A DNA stretch of 61,901 nt, the filler included, from Basidiobolus ranarum (Eukaryota), in NCBI GenBank assembly GCA_040143965.1. It is 6 parts of 6 records of this genome, joined end to end, with 100 filler letters (N's around TTAATTAATTAA, not from the genome) between each part and the next. Parts side by side here need not be neighbours in the genome. Positions count along the whole stretch, not along the records: positions 51,707 to 61,901 come from JASJQH010000729.1; 5 more parts are not named here. The stretch is one strand, 5' to 3'. The notes beneath the pieces are model-generated. The model had not been told where the DNA came from. It saw only the letters and a list, made by a program, of their open reading frames with translations, and made no database searches. The position numbers were made by a program, and so were the translations under genes. Below are positions 3,800 to 61,901 of the stretch, piece by piece. Numbering within the stretch: position 1 is the first letter of the stretch; every line of letters starts with the position of its first letter.

Positions 3800-5050
3800 T
3801 TATACTTGAGAATGGGGTGGTGGTGGGGGAGATGTCATATTAGGATAGCCAAATGACTGTAGCATAAGACTCTGATTACTAGAAAAGTTATTCAATCCAG
3901 AGGGATTTAGAGGGTGATCGTGGGCTAGTAAGTTCATCATACTTGGCGTTGCTTGTTCAAATATATTAGCCCTTGACGTATTAGGTACTAAATATGGGCT
4001 CCTATTGAAAGAGGTAATATTCTCTGTAGATGAGGAAGGCCCAGTGACGGTAGTAGGTAAAATAAATCCGGTATCTGTTAGTCTTTGTGGATTAGCAGGC
4101 ATATGAGCATGAGAATGATAAGGCGACGAGATTGGACTTGATGGTAGTATAGTTAATGAAGGCGAGGGGTGCATTAGAGAAGTCAACTCGTCTTTCGAGC
4201 TTAAAGTGTCACTTGAACTTTGCAGCTTGACCATCTGTGACATAAGGGTATCTTGCGATATATGAATATCCGTATCAAGATGAGTATTGGGAATATTGGC
4301 TGTGCAATCCTGATTAACTACTATCATAGGGGGATTTACTGGCGATTCTAAATAAGGAGTGGAATTTTCACGTTTCAAACTCACATTTTCCAGCCTTAAG
4401 TCTTCAACCTCAGTTTGCAAATCTTTGATGTATTCAATTGCTAGTCTGAGAACATTTCCTCGAGCGTACTTTATTCCCTCTTCTTGTACATTTGGTACGA
4501 TCTCGGAAAGTTCCTCAATGGCCGTATTAATTAAGTCACGCCGCCTCCTCTCGACTCTGTTATGTTGCTCTCGACGTTTTTGAATTCGGTTCATGGCGAC
4601 CAAGCTATCTACTTCATCACGATTCAATATATTCACTCCATTAACAACGTAAGACTCCGAACGCTTACTATCTTTGTTTTTGAAAAGTTTCTCCGGAGTA
4701 AATTCTCGAATGGAGTCCTCAAATCGATATCCTTTCAAGCGTCGATTAGCCATATAACTAGTGAGTGAAGGTTTCTTATTGCTGGGCGGAGGATCTGAGG
4801 ACTGGTTTGAAGTGGAGCAAGTTGACGACCCTTCCATAGGGTTATGAATACCACTGCGATGTGGATTCATAGTTGGAGTGAGAGAGGCTCGAGAGGTGAC
4901 CGAAGGTGAATGCGGTAAAGAAGTACCCCCGGTCGATGGGGGGTTAGACCTCGGAAAAGGGTTCTGCTGTGACCTAGCCCGTGAGGGATTAGGCTTTTCC
5001 GAATAGTTACCCTGACGAAAAGAAGGAAGTTTCTCACTCTCTCTGTCCAT
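3800..5050 (-). CDS. bHLH-leucine zipper transcription factor (USF/MITF/Cbf1-like), intronless, 416 aa
   Basis: RREQHNRVERRRRDLINTAIEELSEIVP...RGNVLRLAIEYIKDLQ followed by heptad leucines; Ser/Pro-rich flanks. Confidence 0.9.
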   Translation of the reverse strand: MDRESEKLPSFRQGNYSEKPNPSRARSQQNPFPRSNPPSTGGTSLPHSPSVTSRASLTPTMNPHRSGIHNPMEGSSTCSTSNQSSDPPPSNKKPSLTSYMANRRLKGYRFEDSIREFTPEKLFKNKDSKRSESYVVNGVNILNRDEVDSLVAMNRIQKRREQHNRVERRRRDLINTAIEELSEIVPNVQEEGIKYARGNVLRLAIEYIKDLQTEVEDLRLENVSLKRENSTPYLESPVNPPMIVVNQDCTANIPNTHLDTDIHISQDTLMSQMVKLQSSSDTLSSKDELTSLMHPSPSLTILPSSPISSPYHSHAHMPANPQRLTDTGFILPTTVTGPSSSTENITSFNRSPYLVPNTSRANIFEQATPSMMNLLAHDHPLNPSGLNNFSSNQSLMLQSFGYPNMTSPPPPPHSQV

Positions 5051-10265: not shown

Positions 10266-10365
10266 NNNNNNNNNNNNNNNNNNNNNNNNNNNNNNNNNNN
10301 NNNNNNNNNTTAATTAATTAANNNNNNNNNNNNNNNNNNNNNNNNNNNNNNNNNNNNNNNNNNNN
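10266..10365. other. Artificial contig linker
   Basis: N44-TTAATTAATTAA-N44, with stop codons in all six frames. Confidence 0.99.
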
Positions 10366-20622: not shown

Positions 20623-20722
20623 NNNNNNNNNNNNNNNNNNNNNNNNNNNNNNNNNNNNNNNNNNNNTTAATTAATTAANNNNNNNNNNNNNNNNNNNNNN
20701 NNNNNNNNNNNNNNNNNNNNNN
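20623..20722. other. Artificial contig linker
   Basis: N44-TTAATTAATTAA-N44. Confidence 0.99.
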
Positions 20723-30967: not shown

Positions 30968-31067
30968 NNNNNNNNNNNNNNNNNNNNNNNNNNNNNNNNN
31001 NNNNNNNNNNNTTAATTAATTAANNNNNNNNNNNNNNNNNNNNNNNNNNNNNNNNNNNNNNNNNNNN
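30968..31067. other. Artificial contig linker
   Basis: N44-TTAATTAATTAA-N44. Confidence 0.99.
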
Positions 31068-41296: not shown

Positions 41297-41396
41297 NNNN
41301 NNNNNNNNNNNNNNNNNNNNNNNNNNNNNNNNNNNNNNNNTTAATTAATTAANNNNNNNNNNNNNNNNNNNNNNNNNNNNNNNNNNNNNNNNNNNN
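41297..41396. other. Artificial contig linker
   Basis: N44-TTAATTAATTAA-N44. Confidence 0.99.
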
Positions 41397-51606: not shown

Positions 51607-51706
51607 NNNNNNNNNNNNNNNNNNNNNNNNNNNNNNNNNNNNNNNNNNNNTTAATTAATTAANNNNNNNNNNNNNNNNNNNNNNNNNNNNNNNNNNNNNN
51701 NNNNNN
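51607..51706. other. Artificial contig linker
   Basis: N44-TTAATTAATTAA-N44. Confidence 0.99.
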
Positions 51707-52945
51707 GAATATATGACAAAATATTTTTTCGTGAAGTTTTTTTGTCTCTTGTTGACAAATGGGTTAAAGATGGAAGTACGACCGGAAAATCCCGGCTTTC
51801 AGCCAAAGTGCGTCAGGTGAGAGAGAAAATAAATGCTTATAAAGAAGAATATTGTCAACTTGCTTCCTATGCACCTATTAAATTGGTGAATGCTCAACAA
51901 ATAGCAATCTATGAAAGCATCAAGATTCATACCGCCTACATTAATAAGGTAGCTCTTCACTTTGGAAATCGTCTCAAAATGTTTCTAAACAAGGCTTTAC
52001 AAAAAAAAGAAAGGATTGACAAGCTGACTCAAGATATGAAAAACAACAGCTACTCAGAAGAGGAAATAAAAACTTCAGTCAAAGCCAATATACTTGATGT
52101 TTACGATAAGATTAAAGCAGAAATATCTTCAAGAACTGTACCAACTGCCCCTGCATCAAATTCAAAACTTTTTGGATGTTTACCCAGACAATCACAAGTT
52201 TGCAAAGGGCTCTGTTTACTACAACGCCAAAGCAAACCTGCAGCAGCATTTACGTGCATTTTATATGCTCGCAAAAATATGTGAAGATAATAATATGAAA
52301 TCGTTTAACTGCTTCCCACTGCGAAAAGGATTTATTCCTTCTTATATGACAATAGACACTAAGATCTTGAACTATTATATATTGAAAAACAAGAATTTCA
52401 CTGGAAATAAAGTCGATATTTGGGGTAGTGTCGTTCATCTAAACTGTAAAGCTCTTAAAAGTTAAAATACCAAGACAATGAAGTTTGAAGGGACCATTGA
52501 AACAGACGGAGTCGGTATGTCTATACTCAAACAAAACTTTAGTACTGCCAGAAGAAGTACTTTAAGCGGTTGCCGGAAAATGAGGGCTGTTGATGATGGT
52601 GTTCCTTATATTGAAAGGTTGTCAAAAGATGAAATCCTTAAGACTATAGATAAGTGCGTGCTTATCGATCCTGGTTGTGGTGATCTTTTATACTGTATGC
52701 ATGAAACGAGTACTCCTCAAGATAAGCCTGTTTTTCGATACACAAGAAACCAGCGAGCAATTGAAACGAAAGCAAGACACTTTCGAAAGCTTTGACAAAT
52801 CTTAAAACCTGCCCATATACAAGAGCTTGAAAATAATCTTAGTAAAACACCTGCTTCAACAGCGATGACTGAAAAATCTGTCGAGTACCTCAAGATGAAA
52901 GCCAGTGTTTCAAAGCCACTAAAAAGCTACTATTGTAATAATGAA
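51707..52945 (+). pseudogene. Fanzor1-like (eukaryotic TnpB/Cas12-related nuclease) pseudogene; 5' end cut by the contig edge, 3' end lost after RuvC-I
   Basis: FFREVFLSLV, QIAIYESIKIHTAYINKVALHFGNRL, KGSVYYNAKAN, FPLRKGFIPSYMTIDTKIL, FEGTIETDGVGMSI, RuvC-I CVLIDPGCGDLLYCMHE, FRYTRNQR; frameshift at ~52150, stops at 52463-52465 and 52793-52795. Confidence 0.85.
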
Positions 52946-54460
52946 GATACGATTCCTTTGGAGTTAAATGCTGGAGCTCAGCATCCGGAAGGTCTTACTG
53001 AAGTAGAGTCGGTTACTAATGAAGAAGATAATACTGCTGATGTTGTTGTCGCAGGCGTTGCTACTATTAACTTTGCTGATACTGATCCCGCTACTGCTCT
53101 TTCCCAAGCTAAGCGTAATTTGAAACTATCTGTTGATCGCGTTCGTGTTGTCCTTCAAGATAAACATTCTTTTTCAAAACTTAATATGGACGAGAAGCAA
53201 AGATTGGATGCCTTGAATCAAAAAAAATCAAACTCTCTTCCTCCTCAGTTATCGCTGTAGGAGTACAGGTAAGATTTTAAAAAATATGTTGATCGTTTAG
53301 AAATCATCATGTCCACAAAAAAACTAAGACGTCTAGTTTTACTGTTGACCTTCGTCTGAAGGCTTTTCTATGATTTTCTAATTACTTTTTGCAATCGTCT
53401 AATTTTAGGTTAAAGCCCTGTAGTCATATTAATGGCATGTGGAGCTGACAAATACTATCTAAACAGAATCTTAGGAGCTAGTTACCATTGTTACAAATCA
53501 ACATATATACTAAGCAGCTGTAGAGTCTAAGCCAATGATCATCCAGTTTTATCCATAGACTAACAACGATTGTTAATGGAAATAGAAAGCGACGGGATTA
53601 GGCAGAATTGAACATTCCATAAAACAATTCCCACTTTCTTATTAAGAGCTAAATGGAATTTTGATTGGACTGGTTTGATGTGAGAACTTAAGGTAAAATG
53701 GCAGTCACGACTGATTCTGAAAATATGCTGAAAGTTGCCATTTACTGCATATACATTCAGACTTAAACACAAAATATGATTCATTCGTTCCTTACGCTTC
53801 ATAATTCAATCCTTATTGCGTAGCTCATTACTGTGTGATTGCCAGGATTTACCAATGTTCCACTACAGCAAGCACATTAAAGCTGAACCACATCAACTCC
53901 ACAATAAAATTCTGACCGTCTGGTATTTTAGTTGGCTTTCTCCCTTTGATATCCGTGTTAGACCGAATCAAGATGTCATTCAGGTTATTGGTTCCACACC
54001 ACTTAGAGAAACCATCGATATCTTGGAAATAAATCCATGATTTTCTTGAAATCCCACTCATTTATTAACGAAAATTTGAGAGTTGATTTAAAAATATAGC
54101 GGATCGGATAAAATTAATTCAAAAGTCACACTACGAAGATTTAAAAAAACCAACGAATTAAAACGTCCCATTTACAAGAATAATCAATACAAAGACAACT
54201 AAGAACCTGTTAATGCTCCAAAGTCAATAACCTTAGTGCACATGTAAAACTACGAAAATCGGCTATTCACACTAGAGAATCTCAGTGCGAGAAGATGAAT
54301 ATTAAAAGAAAAGTAAATAGTGATGAAAGTAGAAAGAAAAAAAAATAGAACACCAAGCTACAAGTGCAGCTATTGTTTTCCCGAAAAGAATTTCTAGAAA
54401 TCAATGCTTCCTCTATGCCCAGGAAGCTCTTTCCACATACACTTTTCAACAGTTTATAGC

Positions 54461-54667
54461 TCAGTTTGATGTTCTTTGATAAGGCGGAGGTAACAAGAGT
54501 GACTCATATGTAGGAAGTCGGGTGGGTTCATATACCGGTAACGGGTCCTCTTGACAAACTGTAATTACCGGAGCAGCAGCAACAGAGGGATTTTGATACC
54601 TTCGCATTAAACGCTCAAAAGGATTACTTTGATGGGGAGTAGGTCGCTGAACATTTTCGTGTGGCAT
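54461..54667 (-). CDS. Possible 68-aa PY-motif microprotein
   Basis: ATG-initiated ORF ending LPVY...LPTY...PPPY; starts only ~46 bp after the upstream gene's stop. Confidence 0.35.
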   Translation of the reverse strand: MPHENVQRPTPHQSNPFERLMRRYQNPSVAAAPVITVCQEDPLPVYEPTRLPTYESLLLPPPYQRTSN

Positions 54668-54713
54668 ATGCTACTATGGTCACTACTATTCAAGCGTTGC
54701 ATTTTTCAGGTTT

Positions 54714-57700
54714 TTAATGCGAAATGTTGTGCCCTGTAAATACGTCAGCATCGATATCATTGCAGCCTCCTCTAGATTCTTTGATGTTCATTTTTACCGA
54801 TATCGGGTCTGTGATTTGATTTGATTTACTATCGTTTGAATTAGTGCTCCTTTTTTCTTCTAATGTAGTAGATGAAGAAAGCGGTGTAGAGACGTCAATA
54901 GCCACTTCGCTCATACTCAAATTAATTGAATTTTCATACGAACGACCCAGGTTAAGTGAACTTATATTTTGGTCTTCATACTGTCCGGAATCTTTGTTTT
55001 CCACTTCATAGAGTGTTTCTTGCGTCGTGTCTGAGCTCTTAATACCAAGGATATCTTTACAAGTAGTGCTTAAAATATCCTCATCTTCCAAAGTAGTTAG
55101 GAGTTCGTTAGATATCTCACCCCGAAGACATTCAGCATACGTCTGATACTTGATTAATTCATGTAGGATATACTGCGATTTTCTTTCCCAATTCGAAAAC
55201 GCTTTGGTCATATTACTCGAACCAGGAGAAAACTGAGGAATAAAATGGTGAATACGAGTAATCTTGCGTTTTTACAGTTACAAAATTGACTTACTCGTAT
55301 TTGTAAAACAGAGTGCAAACTCATGTGTCTCTCTAGTTCATATTCTAATTCAGCCACGTGTCTTACTAATGAGTGGTATTGTTGTATCTTTTGTTTGTTT
55401 GGGAGTGGAGAAAGCCTGTTAGTACGTTCCATCTCAATATATAAATGCAAAAGAAAAGTAATGGCTTACCCTATGTAAGCCAGATGGTACCATAGGATTA
55501 GAGGGCTCTACCCATTCGTGTAGTCCTAGATGGTCCTCAAACTTCGAACCAACTAAGACTGGTTCTTTCACGGAATCAGTGTCGTCGGCCATTTTTGCCC
55601 AAGAAGAACGAACAGAGCCCCAACCGTAATCTAAGTTTGATACTGCACCAGGTAAAGGTTGTTTGCTTTCTTTGGCAGCCCAATAGTTACATATTTTGAT
55701 CCAATCTTGTACCTCTTCACTGCTTCGCACTTGAAATAAGTAGACGCCTCCGTGGCTTAATTGTAAAGCAAATACGTATGGACGAAAAGGAGAATGCCCT
55801 GGGGCCGGAAGACCCGAAGTTAAAGTGTGACGCAGAGACAGTCTACCTAATTGACTATTACTGTCATCCAACACCTCGGGGCCTAATTTCCCACCTTTTT
55901 CGGATTTATACATTCGGAATTCTCCCTTATCAATAACCACAAAACAATCTCTCCATTGTCTGCATGAAGCCTTCTTGCCGGCTCTTTCGAACAAGTGCTT
56001 ACGAACTACGTGACCTAACTTGGTATATTTCACATTCTCTTCATCGACTGTGGATAAAGTTACGCCATGACGCGTTGGCATATCGTCATTATCTTCCAAG
56101 CAGCTTCCCTCCAAATCACTATAGATGGTAGAGCGACTCAGTTGAGTTGAACTTCGACGGGATGTCTCTTCATTCATCTTATTGATATCAATAAGCTGTT
56201 TAGTCATGAATGTATAGAATGGAGGAGATACTACTTAAGATGCTTACACTTAAAGGATCAGAGCATAACGAGTCGCCCCGTTTCCTAGCTCTATTCAATT
56301 TGTTGCTTGAACTAGACCTATAAAATTTAAACCCGCCAAATGAGGAAGTAGCCACGCTAGGTGAGTTCACTTTTGAAGTTGGTTGGGGAATACGCGAATG
56401 CTTCACTGAGGAATATATTTCCTAAGACGTAACCACGCTTTAATTCTATACTGGGCATATCAGAAACAAAAGGGACAATATAAAGATCCTGGGAGCCCTA
56501 TGATAGTAAATCATGTCGAACTAGAAAATTATTTACCTTTAGTATCTCCGTCAACGATTCTTCTCCGAAGCTTGTCTTACTGGACAACGAGTATACACTA
56601 GCTTGCTCCATATCACTATACTCGTGAAAGGAATTCAACGAACTCAACTCGGACGTGTTTTCATTCTCTTCCGTTGCTCGACTACGTCGAATCGTTAAGC
56701 TAGCTTTTATCGTCGCCAGTGTGTTTTTAACAAACTCATTTTTACTGATTTTATGATGGTTTTGTGCCACATGTAAATCCGTATTCAACAATAACACAGA
56801 GTAAACGATGGTGTAAAGAATGTCTAAAAATGGATTTAGGGTAAGGAATACTGCGATATTTTACTCTCCAAAGACTTACCTCGATCAGGGATACTGCGAT
56901 CTCGATTACATACCCAATACCGCTCAGCGAAGGCGTACAAAATTCGATCGATTATTTGAGATTCCCCATGAAGTAGCAAATGGGAACAAAAAAATCTATT
57001 GAGATAGAAATAATTCAATATACAACTTTCGCTAAATGTTATCATTGTGTGAAGTAACTTCAATTACCTAAATGCCTGCTCTAATTTCATCCCTGTAAAG
57101 TTAAAATGTTCCATGTATTTACGCAAAACTATTCGATTCCATTTACCACTGAAGAGTGCGGAAAGAGTGTGAGAGGTACCACTTTTGTGAAAATGAAAGA
57201 GTAATAACTTACCGTTTTCCCAAAATTTCAGCTACTTCGCTTATCTTAAGTTCTTCAGTTTGTGAAAATAGTTGCTTAGCTAACTTGTCAGCATCATCTT
57301 ATTCGGTTTCTTCTCCATCGACGCTTTCGATTTCGGAGTCTACAAACGGTAATGGTTTTTCGAAATCCATGGGACTCATTACCATAGCTGACACTGGTTT
57401 TGAGGAAACAGATTTGCAATTTTTTTGAAATGGGGAGAACTGAAACCTAAATAGACTACTAGGTCTTCTTTCTTTTCGTCCATCAGGGCTCGGCGGTAGA
57501 TCCTCGCTATGAAAGAAAGAGGGTGGAGTGGGTATACTACTTGTAGAACATTCTAAGGAGGATTCCTCCACAGATCCAGCTGTAATAATGGAGCTCTTAT
57601 ACTCTTGCGTAGTATAACGTTGCTGGTAAGATATCCGTAGTGTCTGAAAGCCGACTATAATCTGAGAGCGCGCTCTAGTATCCGAGGATAGTCTAGCGCT

Positions 57701-57854
57701 CGTTTCTCGTTGATCAAAAGAGTGACAATGTGAGAGCTCCTTGTAGATAGGATCTAGGGTATCTTCAATACACTCTAAGCCAATATACGTAGATGAGTAT
57801 TTATCAATCGAAGAGATTGGCTATGTCGTACTTACTTGTATTTTGCGAATTCAT
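54714..57854 (-). CDS. Sec7 + PH domain Arf-GEF (Syt1/Yel1/EFA6-like), multi-exon, with an in-frame TAA at 57299-57301 (possible pseudogene, null allele or sequencing error)
   Basis: LAKQLF...EVAEILGK, YMEHFNFTGMKLEQAFR, LHGESQIIDRIL...FAERY, LLLNTDLH; PH domain VRKHLFERAGKKASCRQWRDCFVV...RPYVFALQL...W...CNYWAAKESK; probable ATG at 57854 followed by a GTAAGT intron. Confidence 0.85.
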
Positions 57855-60800
57855 GATTCTCGAAACGTACGGACCGACAATGGAAGGAGTTGAGACAGAT
57901 TGTATCTTTTTCAAGATATTACTGAAAGAATCAGAGGAGCCTGTTGTCTTCCACTCCGACTAAAATAAAAGACTACTAAGTTTAGGAATGTTTGCTTTCC
58001 TGTAGCAGATAGAAAAGCTCGATCCTAAAGTAATGAATTTCAGGATGGGATGCACTTGTCAGTTTAAAGCGGCGATGAACAGAATCTAGAGATGATTGTT
58101 TTGAAACGAGTTTGGGAAAAATGAACACTGTAGCCAAATAGTTCAAGGGGAAGATAGTAGTAGGAAAAGGCGATCAAGACAGAAGAAGAACGAAACACTT
58201 TAATAAGGTTGGCGATAGACAGGATTCACGAACCTATCAGCAATTGGATATTACTGTTGAATTCGGTCAATGAGTAAATTCTTCGATTGTAACAGCCTTG
58301 TGTGAGAAAACAATCAATTTTGGGACCTTGAAGAACAATTATCGTTTAGTTTTTTCATTTCCATCATGAGATATGTTTAGGATTACCCTAAACCTTTGAC
58401 TAGAACAAACCACGTAGGGCCGCTTTCGATGGCAAATCGAAGAGAAATGTTTCAAATAAATCAAACAAAACGCTGCTGGACACAAGTAATGATAGCTTAG
58501 TAAAAGTATAAGTAGTCGTAGACACGTAGTTGTCAGTGGGAGTCACGGAAGGGGTTCGAAAGGAGTGCTGGTGTCGCGATGGAACAAACGGTATTGATCA
58601 GAGTCGGGGCTTGGGTTGATGCTTCGAAGAGATTCAAAAACTTGATGTTTCCATGCTTTCCCACATGGATATACCTTGTGTTCAATCTGATTTATACTTT
58701 TCACGGCTGCGCTTATTTCTTGATTCAGCAACAATGAGTTATATTGTGGACATTCGTCTTCCAGGGCTGAGCATAGAGATCGCCGTAATTGTTGGGCATG
58801 GCATTCAAAAGGGGAACCTCCGGTGGATCTAGTTAACATGCAGCCGAGCCACTCAATAAGGGGATAATGGGATGTGGATTGTTTCTTGTTGGAGCATTCT
58901 TTACTACAATCGATACATTCCCTATTATTCGCAACAGTACACCTTCAGACGCTGATGGAGCGCTCTTTTCGATAGGGTAGAGCAGCTGAGATCTCAGCAC
59001 AAGTCACCCCCGCATATCCGTTGAATCACCACTCTATCGGAGTGTACTTTCTGAAGATGAATAATCATCAATACAATGCTTGACTTAATGAGATCATCGG
59101 CAACTTTCAGCCTGCATGTGCGTGAGGCTCACGGATGGTTTTTGTTAGAATGGATCGTAAACAATCATCTTTCCAACATCAATGTGACAATTGGCTCGTA
59201 GATAAGGAAACTGTCTTACAAAAAGTGTTGCGACAAGTGGCCCAGGTGATTCCACTTGCTGTGTTTTTTCAAGGAGTTCAACCACTCTTGGACTTGCATG
59301 CCTCAACTTGAATTTAAACTTAATCTAAGCATTTCGTTGCAGAACCGCCTCAGGCTTTAAAGGAGAAAGCTGGAGAACCACAACCTCTCTTTAAAATACA
59401 AATGCTATCCTTAATGTAGCTGATCAATATGTCATTGGTGCCTGAGGATGAGGCGTTATCTAAGAGCATTCAATCAGTATATATGTGTTACTGTACCTGG
59501 TCTTGAGAATCAACATATATTACCCCAAGATGCTCTAGATTCTGCCATAAACTGTCTTTCGATGCGTTACTACGACTACTTGTTCAGTAGGTGCCTTACA
59601 ATCTTGTTTCCACTTCCTTACATGTATCCCCCTTTTGGACATGATTTGCATTCCCGAACTTCTGACACTCCATTGCCGGTTACCATGACGAAAATCACGC
59701 AAAACATGTCCAGTATTCATTTGATGTAGGAAGGATCGTTAAATCTATGTATATTACTGTACTGATATCATCAGCTTAATGGTGACGATAGCTGGTACAA
59801 AGTTATTCACTCACGCTATAAGACCAATATTAAACCTGTCATAGTCTCAGACTCACAACTTTTGTGTCTTTTCCAGAGTCGCTCTGCGGTTCACTGTTCT
59901 AGGTTTCACTTGAGGATTCTTATGATCCACTGGCACATCATATTGGAATATTCATGGCTACATAATACATCCTGTTGCCATCTCAAAAATCTATCCTAGC
60001 TACAATTGGTCCTCGCCCTAGGCTAAAACCGAGAGTGAGTACCCCAAGTGAGCAACAAGGAAGCCTATTTCAATTCCTTGGTCGCTACTTACGCAATGGC
60101 CTTCTATTCTTCTAAGTGACATAGGAAGGAATTTCCTTCTATTCATAAATATGCCCGAAGCAGGTAATCTACACTTTGCCATTCATTAACTTTAAGGCAT
60201 GTTTTGTCCATGTGGAGAATCGTGAGTCCGACTAAACTGATGTAACGGTTTGCCTTAGTAAAAGGGCATGTATGCTCTTAAGTATTATATGAAACCAAGC
60301 AATGGAAGCACGAGTGATGACCAGTCTTTTCATGATTATTATTTTTCATGAATGTTGGTGGACACCTAAGAGTAAGCAGTATTTAAAGATCCTCACCGTG
60401 TGGTTAAATAAATCCAGCCTAGTTTATCAAACACTATTGCAAGAAACAAACGTCACCTTGCTCTTAGGTCACGACAAACAAGTTCAACGATCTTGTCGAA
60501 AAGATCTTATTTATTACAGATTTTTGCTTTGTATTGTATAAGTATTCATGTCCAGGTCTCTCCTAAACCTAATGAAAATCATTGTCACATGTCTCATATA
60601 ACCGGATCCTGCAGTGTATGAATGTATGAACCTTAAACGGGATCATCCAACTTTCTTACTCACTTCGCCCTCCTGAAAAATCAGCCTGTGAATTCTCCAG
60701 AAGCCTTGTATTTGCGTATAATTATATCTGTACTTTGGAATGAATCAGTATTGAAAACACTTCAGCGAGAAAAACCTGATTTGATGCCATTTCTTAGCTT

Positions 60801-61448
60801 CCCACGTATGACAACTAAGAACAAGCTCATGGTGTACAGTTGAGCACTCATCTAGTAAACCACGAATGAAGAAGGATGCCTCAATACAGCATCTAGTAAT
60901 CTTTTATGATTGTTTTGTTTCCTGAGGAATAAGCCGAATACTCGTACTTGTAGAATATGAATTGTTGGAGCCTATCATTCCTCATAGACGATACCTAACC
61001 CTAGGTTCTACACTAAATCTTCTTGAGAATAAGAAAATATCCTAAATCAGATTATTGCTACCGATTTTTGCTATTTACGGTATTATTGCAAAGCTGCCAT
61101 AACTGTGCGAGCTGCGAGTTACGACTTTCTATTGCCAAGGTTGATGCTCCTCAAAAGTCGATATTCCTAAGTACTTCGGATTGATGTGACGAAAGAACGA
61201 ATGTTTCAAAGAGACAATTTATTCAATGATGCTTCCCTATGTAAAAAGAAAAAGATTGCAATGTTTATAAGGAAAGATAACAACGATACTTCCTATCTTC
61301 CCGAAGCTTACATTCAAAATTCTACCGGGATTTCAGTTCAAGATTATATACAGAGAATTTTCAAAATGGACAACTTCGAAGATTAGTTTCGTCTATAACT
61401 ATAGCGCGATAAATAACCGTAAAGAGTTAAACAAAAAGATCCATCCAA

Positions 61449-61901
61449 CTACTTCCGGACGAGGCTCTTTGCTTTCCGTTCTGCACACCTTCTAACTGAA
61501 TTGTGTCTTTTGAGCGCATCGAGCCTACCAAATGTTCTATCGCATATAGAGCATCGGTATGGTTTATACCCCAAATGAATCTTTTGATGTCGTTTCAAAT
61601 CATGGTTTCTACTAAACGATTGATGGCACACATCGCACTTAAACGGCCGGTCGGACGTATGAATCTTATAGTGGCTTCTTAGATTATAAATACAATTGAA
61701 CGTGTTATTGCAGTTGGGAAACGAACACCCGTACAACTCATCCCCAGGTGGTTGATCTTCCGACGAGCTGCCTTCAACGTTGTTTTCCTCTGGATTAGCT
61801 GGCTTGGGAAAGACAACCGCATTTGTCAAGCTACTTAAAGATTCCCGAAGATTTTTGCTCAATTGAGAATATCCACTGGGTAGTGGGGTTTTGTGTTTTA
61901 T
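61449..61901 (-). CDS. C2H2 zinc-finger transcription factor (three fingers), 5' end beyond the window
   Basis: CSFPNC...HYKIHTSDRPFKCDVC...HQKIHLGYKPYRCSIC...H; frame stays open to the window edge. Confidence 0.9.
   Translation of the reverse strand: MKHKTPLPSGYSQLSKNLRESLSSLTNAVVFPKPANPEENNVEGSSSEDQPPGDELYGCSFPNCNNTFNCIYNLRSHYKIHTSDRPFKCDVCHQSFSRNHDLKRHQKIHLGYKPYRCSICDRTFGRLDALKRHNSVRRCAERKAKSLVRK

What the first reader, a model, noticed from the sequence alone, without database searches (positions are those of the whole stretch)
51707..52945. Fanzor1-like RNA-guided nuclease relic, split over four ORF fragments
Seen: joining ORFs 51742, 52094, 52478 and the start of 52865 across one frameshift (~52150) and two stops gives ~410 aa with ordered motifs FFREVFLSL, YINxVxxHF, FPLRxxFIPSYMTIDT, FxGxIxTDGVGxSI, VLIDPGxxDLLYC and FRYTRNQR. 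Knowledge: this motif order is that of Fanzor1 proteins I recognise from Mucorales-type fungi; the Asp of DPG (52667-52669) is the RuvC-I catalytic residue and is intact. Inference: the lesions are few and simple (TAA from probable CAA, TGA from probable CGA, DPGCG from DPGRR), so the family was active fairly recently and intact siblings with an omegaRNA may exist in this genome. This copy is dead: RuvC-II, the zinc finger, RuvC-III and the 3' omegaRNA region are missing.
Basis: partly seen in the sequence, partly recalled or inferred. Interest (0 to 1): 0.8.

Follow-up and report, generated by a model that had tools for sequence, protein, structure and literature searches.

The report
Dead Fanzor1 transposon copy, right end kept
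This is the decayed, internally deleted remnant of a transposon that once encoded a Fanzor1 RNA-guided DNA nuclease; it sits next to ordinary genes of a Basidiobolus-like fungus, it cannot work any more, and its only unusual side is that its nearest intact relatives are in Rhizopus moulds.

Summary
Read through its breaks, window 51709-53260 matches the solved Parasitella parasitica Fanzor1 (E 7.7e-69 and 1.7e-27) and Spizellomyces Fanzor1 (E 4e-19). A model of it matches only Fanzor1 structures. The RuvC-I Asp (52667-52669) is present. RuvC-II, the zinc finger and RuvC-III are absent from the whole window.

Corrections:
- The window is six ~10.2 kb segments joined by N linkers. The relic starts at the first base of segment 6, so the 5' limit is a contig end.
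- The remnant runs on to about 53422, not 52945, with two more stops (TAG 53258, TAA 53270).
- The frameshift is a ~26-nt deletion.
- The 3' end is not simply missing. Window ~53302-53422 aligns with both arms of the 135-nt terminal inverted repeat of a related element, so this is an internal deletion that kept the right end.
- The host is Basidiobolus-like, not Mucorales. All six Basidiobolus relatives found are 92-166 aa fragments, so recent activity is unsupported.

In trees the Basidiobolus clade is nested among Rhizopus Fanzor1s, so horizontal transfer is possible. Ordinary in kind; modest interest.

The parts
51607..51706 (.). Artificial linker (N44-TTAATTAATTAA-N44) between two separate ~10.2 kb segments. 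The relic begins at the first base of segment 6.
   Evidence: five such linkers, at 10310, 20667, 31012, 41341 and 51651.
51709..52155 (+). Fanzor1 coding remnant, frame 1 (REC/WED lobe; equivalent to PpFz1 residues ~165-303). The N-terminal ~80-165 codons and the left end lie off the contig.
   Evidence: E 1.7e-27 to 9cf0, chain residues 574-712; tblastn with P0003, P0004, P0028 and P0041.
52153..52156 (+). Frameshift junction. About 26 nt (8 codons plus 2 nt) are missing relative to the sibling P0028 (its stretch NFLDDMAV) and to P0003/P0010/P0041.
   Evidence: Frame 1 aligns up to the Ala codon at 52153-52155 and frame 2 starts from the His codon at 52154-52156.
52154..52462 (+). Coding remnant, frame 2 (FPLRKGFIPSYMTIDT region).
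52463..52465 (+). In-frame TAA; aligns with Gln in PpFz1 and in B. ranarum P0012/P0037.
52466..52792 (+). Coding remnant with the TDGVG block and RuvC-I. Asp at 52667-52669. The Cys codon at 52676-52678 stands where P0003/P0014 have Arg.
   Evidence: this Asp (D200 of P0001) is >=90% conserved in 87 sequences.
52793..52795 (+). In-frame TGA; aligns with Arg in PpFz1, P0003 and P0010.
52796..53257 (+). Open remnant. It holds a helical stretch up to YYCNNE (52945), then a subfamily-specific acidic insert at the position where PpFz1 has its FRI domain. The insert is shared with Rhizopus P0003/P0010 and B. ranarum P0014/P0095.
53258..53272 (+). Two further in-frame stops (TAG 53258-53260, TAA 53270-53272) in the last weak coding remnant.
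53302..53422 (+). Right-end terminal inverted repeat of the element. The outer 48 nt (53377-53423) are 79% identical to the right arm of the L001 repeat. The end lies at ...CCCTG followed by TA (53421-53422). An internal deletion of about 0.65-0.75 kb joins the coding remnant to it.
   Evidence: (E 1e-5 and 0.002); the last exon of B. ranarum P0014 maps to 53363-53410.
53423..54713 (.). Flanking, apparently non-coding host DNA with no Fanzor homology.
54714..57820 (-). Neighbouring host gene (Sec7 plus PH domain, Arf-GEF-like). Best hits are Basidiobolus ranarum (77%) and B. meristosporus (66%).

Best explanation
Window 51707-53422 is the 3' two-thirds of a dead copy of a Fanzor1-carrying DNA transposon, integrated in the genome of a Basidiobolus-like fungus. 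An intact element of this kind is a pair of long terminal inverted repeats around one gene. That gene encodes Fanzor1, a TnpB-derived nuclease. Fanzor1 binds an omegaRNA transcribed from the right end and uses the flanking bases as a guide. It cuts matching, TAM-adjacent DNA with a split RuvC site (Asp, Glu, Asp/Asn) supported by a zinc-finger (TNB) domain. This mechanism is established for SpuFz1, GtFz1 and PpFz1 and is inferred here by homology. This copy keeps the REC/WED lobe, RuvC-I with its Asp, a subfamily-specific acidic insert and the right-end inverted repeat. It has lost about 0.65-0.75 kb internally, covering RuvC-II, the zinc finger, RuvC-III and the 3' UTR. It also carries a ~26-nt frameshifting deletion and four in-frame stops. 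It cannot make a nuclease. Its 5' part is cut off by the end of the contig, not necessarily by biology. It belongs to a small family of similarly decayed copies in Basidiobolus.
For: Sequence identity as Fanzor1: (9cf0 E 7.7e-69 and 1.7e-27; 8gkh E 4.2e-19). One search gave 996 relatives at E<=1e-3, 423 at <=1e-10 and 69 at <=1e-30. Fold: a model from an 87-sequence alignment (mean pLDDT 74.4) gave 26 PDB matches at E<=10. The 7 at E<=1e-3 are all Fanzor1 chains: PpFz, SpuFz and GtFz. RuvC-I Asp is present and conserved. The C-terminal motifs (LPFRK, G[DN]W, E-TSS-CxxC, NRD) are present in P0003, P0004, P0008, P0013 and P0159 but absent from the relic. tblastn with 7 full-length homologues against the whole window, and with their C-terminal parts against segment 6, found nothing else with E below 0.3, apart from one P0009 hit that falls inside the known remnant. 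Lesions. Right-end repeat. Integration in host DNA: Sec7/PH and C2H2 genes lie on the same segment, with best hits in Basidiobolus. Sibling fragments are 79-86% identical and lie on five B. ranarum contigs.
Against: The local Pfam copy finds no family for the pieces. The intact homologues P0003 and P0004 also score nothing there; the precomputed PF26935 label they carry is not in that copy. TM-scores to solved Fanzors are low (0.31-0.39), as expected for a truncated multi-domain piece. The repeat assignment rests on one related element (L001), whose protein is only 47% identical. Only the outer 48 nt are clearly similar; the inner part aligns with a 21-nt gap. Reads could not be consulted, so the lesions and the internal deletion are not verified against raw data. 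The exact deletion junction (about 53290-53310) is uncertain.
Confidence: 0.9

Rival explanations
1. Ghost-type locus that still works in trans. The protein gene is dead, but the retained right end is transcribed into an omegaRNA whose guide is the flank (53423 onward). An intact Fanzor1 encoded elsewhere in the genome would use it.
For: The right-end inverted repeat is retained and its outer 48 nt are the best conserved DNA between distant subfamilies. In S. punctatus the omegaRNA scaffold spans the region from the stop codon through the 3' repeat, and 134 protein-less ghost loci exist (PMC10432273, section 7 read).
Against: RNA folding of the end is no better than shuffles (z 0.27, -0.01 and 1.17). 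No intact Fanzor1 from Basidiobolus appears in either length class searched. The element as a whole is decayed. No expression data were available.
Confidence: 0.07
2. Assembly artefact. The real locus is a full-length, or at least longer, Fanzor1 element, and the internal deletion and/or frameshift come from collapse or mis-joining of repeat copies in a fragmented assembly.
For: The contig ends inside the element and the assembly consists of ~10 kb pieces. The family is multi-copy in Basidiobolus.
Against: Four stops at conserved positions are hard to produce by misassembly. B. ranarum gene models show the same kind of decay, and one of them (P0014) also runs from the insert region into the repeat.
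Confidence: 0.04
3. Contaminating Mucorales DNA in the assembly rather than a resident of this genome.
For: All named full-length relatives are from Mucorales.
Against: The same 10.2 kb segment carries host genes whose best hits are Basidiobolus (77% and 66%; a Mucorales hit reaches only 39%). The nearest relatives of the relic itself are six B. ranarum fragments.
Confidence: 0.01

Closest known systems
Parasitella parasitica Fanzor1 (PpFz1; PDB 9cf0-9cf3; Xu et al., Cell 2024, PMC11423790, passages read)
   Same: The match is colinear from PpFz1 residue ~165 to ~573 (46% identity on the core) and weakly again near 633-656. It covers the same REC/WED lobe and the same DPG RuvC-I motif.
   Different: PpFz1 is intact (D485, E755, NRD 816-818 in P0004) and has the ~100 aa FRI domain that binds cyclophilin. 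At that position the relic has a different, acidic low-complexity insert, and only the last helix resembles FRI. The relic lacks everything from LPFRK onward.
Rhizopus microsporus / R. stolonifer Fanzor1 subfamily (P0003, P0010, P0039, P0041)
   Same: These are the closest full-length relatives: 63.5% identity over 252 core columns to P0003 and 63.3% over 128 to P0041. P0003 and P0010 share the insert after YYCNxE. They form one clade with the relic, support 100/99.
   Different: They come from a different phylum. The Rhizopus genes keep RuvC-II and the zinc finger, and P0003 also keeps RuvC-III; P0010 ends before it at the end of its short contig. The relic does not.
Partial Fanzor loci and ghost Spu-1 elements of Spizellomyces punctatus (Saito et al., Nature 2023, PMC10432273, section 7 read)
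   Same: A Fanzor1 gene flanked by inverted repeats, with many partial or protein-less copies in one genome. The right end is where the omegaRNA is encoded.
   Different: The Spu-1 repeats are 30 nt; the related element L001 has 135-nt repeats. The SpuFz1 protein is only distantly related (E 4e-19). No omegaRNA has been shown for this family here.
Fanzor1 elements of Mucoromycota described by Bao and Jurka 2013 (PMC3627910, passages read)
   Same: The protein family is the same, and it resides in non-autonomous DNA transposons with terminal inverted repeats.
   Different: [quoted passage not shown] In L001 and the relic the repeats end in ...CTxTA with no matching 9-bp flanks in L001; a TA duplication is possible but unproven.

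Membership tests
Fanzor1 (eukaryotic TnpB-derived omegaRNA-guided nuclease) | Significant sequence homology to biochemically validated Fanzor1 proteins | tested here: met
   PpFz1 E 7.7e-69 and 1.7e-27; SpuFz1 E 4.2e-19; all 7 fold matches at E<=1e-3 are Fanzor1 chains.
Fanzor1 (eukaryotic TnpB-derived omegaRNA-guided nuclease) | RuvC-I catalytic Asp (the first D of D-X(125,275)-[TS][TS]-x-x-C4-X(5,50)-RD; Bao and Jurka 2013) | tested here: met
   GAT at 52667-52669 aligns with the DPG/DPN Asp of PpFz1 and SpuFz1 and is >=90% conserved in 87 sequences. Equating it with SpuFz1 D383 rests on the paper's residue list and on motif spacing, not on a checked numbering.
Fanzor1 (eukaryotic TnpB-derived omegaRNA-guided nuclease) | RuvC-II Glu | tested here: not met
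   Absent from the alignment, and no C-terminal homology anywhere in the window.
Fanzor1 (eukaryotic TnpB-derived omegaRNA-guided nuclease) | [TS][TS]-x-x-C4 zinc finger (TNB domain) | tested here: not met
   Absent.
Fanzor1 (eukaryotic TnpB-derived omegaRNA-guided nuclease) | RuvC-III RD / NRD motif | tested here: not met
   Absent.
Fanzor1 (eukaryotic TnpB-derived omegaRNA-guided nuclease) | Uninterrupted reading frame | tested here: not met
   One frameshift and four in-frame stops. The locus is therefore filed as a pseudogene descended from a Fanzor1 gene, not as a functional member.
Fanzor1 (eukaryotic TnpB-derived omegaRNA-guided nuclease) | omegaRNA encoded at the right end, with the guide in the flank | tested here: inconclusive
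   A right-end repeat is present, but folding gives z about 0, no Rfam family matched at gathering score, and no RNA data were available.
Fanzor1-carrying DNA transposon with terminal inverted repeats | Terminal inverted repeats at both ends, with a target-site duplication | tested here: inconclusive
   The right end is found by homology to both arms of L001's 135-nt repeat. The left end lies off the contig, and the repeat core motif occurs only once in the window. A TA duplication cannot be checked with one end.

The most novel reading that the evidence does not exclude
The Basidiobolus Fanzor1 family, to which this relic belongs, was acquired by horizontal transposon transfer from a Rhizopus-like mucoralean fungus, across phyla (Mucoromycota to a Zoopagomycota lineage). 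It then amplified to at least half a dozen copies and decayed. Evidence: the relic and 4 B. ranarum fragments form a clade (99/98). That clade sits in a 9-row clade with two Rhizopus lineages (100/99), nested within Mucorales Fanzor1 diversity, while Coemansia (Zoopagomycota) lies far outside. Holding the 29 Mucorales rows together costs 22.1 log-likelihood units (AU p 0.004). Core identity between the relic and Rhizopus (63.5% and 63.3%) is about the same as between the two Rhizopus lineages (65.8%). The neighbouring host protein is only 39% identical to its best Mucorales hit. Caveats: this is a multi-paralogue transposon family. The root is not inferred. The constrained group was named after the quick tree had been seen. 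There is only one host gene as baseline. The Basidiobolus rows are short fragments. Sampling of Zoopagomycota is thin.
Probability: 0.4. Interest if true: 0.5.

Novelty: new member of a known kind. Interest (0 to 1): 0.3.

Why it matters
Fanzor1 is the eukaryotic counterpart of TnpB/Cas12 and is of interest for genome editing, but partial and dead copies are common where the family lives. S. punctatus alone has 42 loci with full-length or partial Fz genes and 134 ghost loci (PMC10432273, section 7 read). This locus adds three modest things:

- It places the Mucorales-type Fanzor1 family in a Basidiobolus-like genome. Full-text searches found no paper mentioning both Fanzor and Basidiobolus, though supplementary tables of the Fanzor surveys could not be read and may list such hits.
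- It shows a second kind of insert at the RuvC position where PpFz1 carries its cyclophilin-binding FRI domain. The insert is shared with Rhizopus.
- Its right-end repeat keeps 79% nucleotide identity over 48 nt with an element whose protein is only 47% identical. This points to strong constraint on the terminal ~50 nt, from the omegaRNA scaffold, from transposase binding, or both.

If the cross-phylum transfer is real, it would be a concrete case of the eukaryote-to-eukaryote spread of Fanzor that Saito et al. proposed.

Tried and rejected
- Pfam scan of the two pieces: only sub-threshold chance hits. Intact homologues P0003 and P0004 also score nothing in this Pfam copy, so the blank says nothing.
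- Rfam at gathering score and a tRNA scan of the whole window: 0 hits each.
- Own-genome search: no genome is held for this window. Neither was retried, so copy number, intact siblings and read-level checks of the lesions remain open.
- Earlier findings of this scan: nothing by place or by sequence.
- Self-comparison of segment 6 against the whole window: no shared repeats.
- First structure model, from 11 sequences: pLDDT 43.1, discarded.
- Metagenome scan for close siblings: 1 confirmed locus out of 61 pattern matches. It is a Rhizopus arrhizus-like element (47% identity), not a Basidiobolus sibling, but it supplied the terminal repeats.
- RNA folding of the retained right end in the window and in L001: z between -1.25 and 1.17, so no support for a conserved structure.
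- Idea that the frameshift is a 1-nt slip in the CCCC run at 52148-52151: rejected, because siblings and Rhizopus relatives carry about 8 extra codons exactly there.
- Idea that the gene continues after an intron at 53268 (GTAAG): rejected, because no C-terminal homology exists downstream.
- A five-term paper search with min_terms 2 was poorly designed. None of the 15 listed papers mentions Fanzor, and nothing is drawn from it.
Full report
**1. What the window is**

The 61,901-base window is not one stretch of genome. It is six segments of 10.2 kb each, joined by N44-TTAATTAATTAA-N44 linkers at 10310, 20667, 31012, 41341 and 51651. The finding starts at 51707, the first base of the sixth segment (51707-61901). 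Its 5' limit is therefore a contig end. GC content is 33-41% throughout. No whole genome is held for the window. This scan holds no earlier notes on it.

**2.

- The frame changes near 52150.
- TAA (52463-52465) and TGA (52793-52795) interrupt the second frame.
- GAT at 52667-52669 encodes the Asp of DPG.

I read window 52070-53260 through with X at the two stops (P0001) and took 51709-52164 as P0002.

**3. Identity**

- P0001 matches the solved Parasitella parasitica Fanzor1 (9cf0, E 7.7e-69, chain 721-984). It matches Spizellomyces punctatus Fanzor1 (8gkh) at E 4.2e-19. No other PDB sequence scored below E 10.
- P0002 matches 9cf0 at E 1.7e-27 (chain 574-712). The next hits are at E 0.2.
- The two stops align with Gln and Arg in PpFz1 and other relatives.
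- An exhaustive HMMER search of 1.84 billion representatives gave 996 relatives at E<=1e-3, 423 at <=1e-10 and 69 at <=1e-30.
- The local Pfam copy gave nothing for either piece. It also gives nothing for the intact homologues P0003 and P0004, so that blank is uninformative. Homologues carry a precomputed PF26935 label that this Pfam copy does not hold.
- A first AlphaFold model from 11 sequences was poor (pLDDT 43.1) and was discarded.
- A second model from 87 sequences reached pLDDT 74.4. Foldseek against the PDB returned 26 matches at E<=10. The 7 at E<=1e-3 are all Fanzor1 chains: PpFz at 9e-19 and 2e-17, SpuFz at 1.5e-9 to 3e-8, and GtFz at 5.5e-4. TM-scores are low (0.31-0.39), as expected for a truncated multi-domain piece.

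**4. Extent and lesions**

The best full-length database relative is a 761-aa Rhizopus microsporus protein (P0003). It continues through an acidic, low-complexity stretch to about 53300 and crosses two more stops, TAG 53258-53260 and TAA 53270-53272. Basidiobolus ranarum fragments P0014 and P0095 cover this tail at 64-85% identity, so it belongs to the family.

The frameshift is a deletion, not a 1-nt slip:
- Sibling P0028 and the Rhizopus relatives have about 8 codons between the Ala codon at 52153-52155 and the His codon at 52154-52156. The window lacks them.
- That is a deletion of about 26 nt.

The DPGCG motif differs from the subfamily's DPGRG (P0003, P0014) by one residue. DPGCG is also seen in P0036 and P0010.

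The conserved C-terminal motifs are LPFRK, G[DN]W, E-[FY]-[RK]-TSS-CxxC, HGLLRC and NRD.
- P0003, P0004, P0008, P0013 and P0159 have them. The relic does not.
- tblastn with seven full-length homologues against the whole window found only this locus. All other hits had E >= 1.5.
- A more sensitive search with C-terminal parts against segment 6 gave nothing below E 0.3. The one exception is a P0009 hit that lies inside the known remnant.

**5. The right end is retained**

A metagenome scan for siblings returned one locus, L001, out of 61 pattern matches. It is a Rhizopus arrhizus-like Fanzor1 element, 47% identical in protein.

L001 has 135-nt inverted repeats, with arms at 1721-1855 and 4446-4580 that are 89% complementary. 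They bracket its Fanzor1 gene.

I ran BLASTn of window 53261-54713 against L001:
- Window 53377-53423 hit the outer 48 nt of the right arm (79% identity, E 1e-5).
- The same stretch, in reverse, hit the outer end of the left arm (E 0.002).

In a three-way alignment, window ~53302-53422 runs along the whole repeat with one 21-nt gap. Similarity ends in all three sequences directly after ...CTxTA. So the element ends at about 53422, with TA at 53421-53422. The repeat core motif occurs once in the window, against 0.01 expected by chance. The last exon of the B. ranarum gene model P0014 maps to 53363-53410, inside this repeat.

The copy therefore lost about 0.65-0.75 kb internally, between the insert region and the inner edge of the repeat. 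That size is estimated from P0003 residues 570-761 plus the ~85 nt between stop codon and repeat in L001. The copy did not lose its whole 3' end.

Saito et al. (PMC10432273, section 7 read in full) report the following for SpuFz1 loci:
- The 75-nt omegaRNA scaffold spans the region from the stop codon through the 3' inverted repeat.
- The 14-15-nt guide lies just beyond the repeat.

By position, the relic may therefore still hold scaffold-coding DNA. Folding gives no support for this: z was 0.27 for 53318-53600, and between -1.25 and 1.17 for the terminal pieces of the window and L001. I rate the omegaRNA question as inconclusive.

**6. Surroundings and host**

Beyond 53422 there are about 1.3 kb with no family hits. 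Then come minus-strand ORFs of a Sec7 plus PH-domain gene (54714-57820) and a C2H2 zinc-finger ORF at 61449-61901. The PH-domain ORF has these best hits:
- Basidiobolus ranarum, 77%
- B. meristosporus, 66%
- Coemansia, 55% and 44%
- a Mucorales species (Gongronella), 39%

The relic is thus integrated in a Basidiobolus-like genome. It is not a contaminant.

**7. The family**

The closest relatives of the relic are six short proteins of 92-166 aa. Five are 79-85% identical to it and one is 65% identical. All are annotated in B. ranarum, on five contigs of 6.6-23 kb.

No Basidiobolus protein appears among the 48 hits of 217-693 aa or the 7 hits of 694-2000 aa. All named hits there are Mucorales, plus two Coemansia fragments. 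A further ten representatives looked up by name were:
- seven from Mucorales (two Rhizopus microsporus clusters, one of which also holds R. azygosporus; two Thamnidium; Helicostylum; R. arrhizus; Cokeromyces);
- one labelled Albugo candida, on an 863-bp contig;
- two unnamed.

On the tree's kept columns the relic is 79-86% identical to four of the B. ranarum fragments, and those fragments are 80-84% identical to each other. Together with four stops in about 1.6 kb, this points to an old, decayed family rather than a recently active one. My searches used the relic as query. They could not find Basidiobolus fragments made only of the C-terminal part.

**8. Phylogeny**

I built a quick tree of 55 rows, chosen by me from the 203 proteins then held: all named homologues with good coverage plus long unnamed representatives. 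I then built a careful tree of 36 rows after dropping 19 unnamed rows and keeping P0010. Both trees agree:
- The relic plus four B. ranarum fragments form a clade (99/98).
- That clade joins R. microsporus (P0003, P0010) and R. stolonifer (P0039, P0041) in a 9-row clade (100/99).
- The 9-row clade is sister to the PpFz1-containing clade (98/98) and is nested among other Mucorales lineages. Coemansia lies far outside.

An AU test that held the 29 Mucorales rows together lost 22.1 log-likelihood units (p 0.004). I named that group after seeing the quick tree.

Core identities:
- relic to P0003: 63.5% over 252 columns
- relic to P0041: 63.3% over 128
- P0003 to P0041: 65.8% over 111
- relic to PpFz1: 46.4%
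- relic to Coemansia: 34.5%

This pattern fits cross-phylum horizontal transfer. Old paralogy with losses is not excluded.

**9. The insert**

Xu et al. (PMC11423790, passages read) describe a ~100-aa FRI insertion in the PpFz1 RuvC domain. It binds cyclophilin through P614 and P616, and they found it only in Parasitella and Rhizopus.
- In P0004 the insertion lies between YYGNE (570) and LPFRK (684), with PQP at 613.
- P0013, P0159 and P0165 have almost nothing at that position.
- The relic, P0003, P0010, P0014 and P0095 have a different, acidic insert there. Only its last helix resembles the end of FRI, and that PDB alignment piece is itself not significant.

**10. Verdict**

Five points need correction:
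- The locus is longer than stated.
- Its 5' limit is a contig end.
- Its right end is retained.
- Its host is Basidiobolus-like.
- Recent activity is not supported.

It is a pseudogene descended from a known family, so it is ordinary in kind. The possible Rhizopus-to-Basidiobolus transfer and the conserved terminal 48 nt are the only parts worth following up. No paper in the searchable library mentions both Fanzor and Basidiobolus.

Noticed in passing
window 10266-10365, 20623-20722, 30968-31067, 41297-41396, 51607-51706: The window is a concatenation of six separate ~10.2 kb segments (lengths falling from 10265 to 10195) joined by N44-TTAATTAATTAA-N44 linkers. Features next to a linker are cut by contig ends.
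   Followed up: yes
L001 1-906 (+): Upstream of the Fanzor1 element in the metagenome contig lies an open-ended 301-aa ORF with a weak Phage_integrase (tyrosine recombinase) match (E 6.4e-4, below the Pfam cut-off). It lies outside the inverted repeats, so it is probably a neighbouring Crypton- or DIRS-like element.
   Followed up: partly
L001 1721-4580: This looks like a complete Rhizopus arrhizus-like Fanzor1 element of 2.86 kb. It has 135-nt terminal inverted repeats (89% complementary), subterminal GTCT[AC]A-type repeats, termini TATAGTG...CACTATA (a TA target duplication is possible), and one intron at about 4037-4096.
   Followed up: partly
window 52946-53257, and P0003/P0010 residues ~410-570: A second type of insert, acidic and low-complexity, occupies the RuvC position where PpFz1 has its cyclophilin-binding FRI domain. 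It is shared by Rhizopus and Basidiobolus members of one subfamily.
   Followed up: partly
P0052: A 194-aa relative (53% identity) is labelled Albugo candida, an oomycete, and sits on an 863-bp contig. It may be contamination or another transfer.
   Followed up: no
window 52463, 52676, 52793: Three of the lesions (TAA for Gln, TGT for Arg, TGA for Arg) are all compatible with C-to-T transitions, two of them at CpG. R-to-C at the same DPG+2 position recurs in P0036 and P0010, which suggests deamination-type decay.
   Followed up: no
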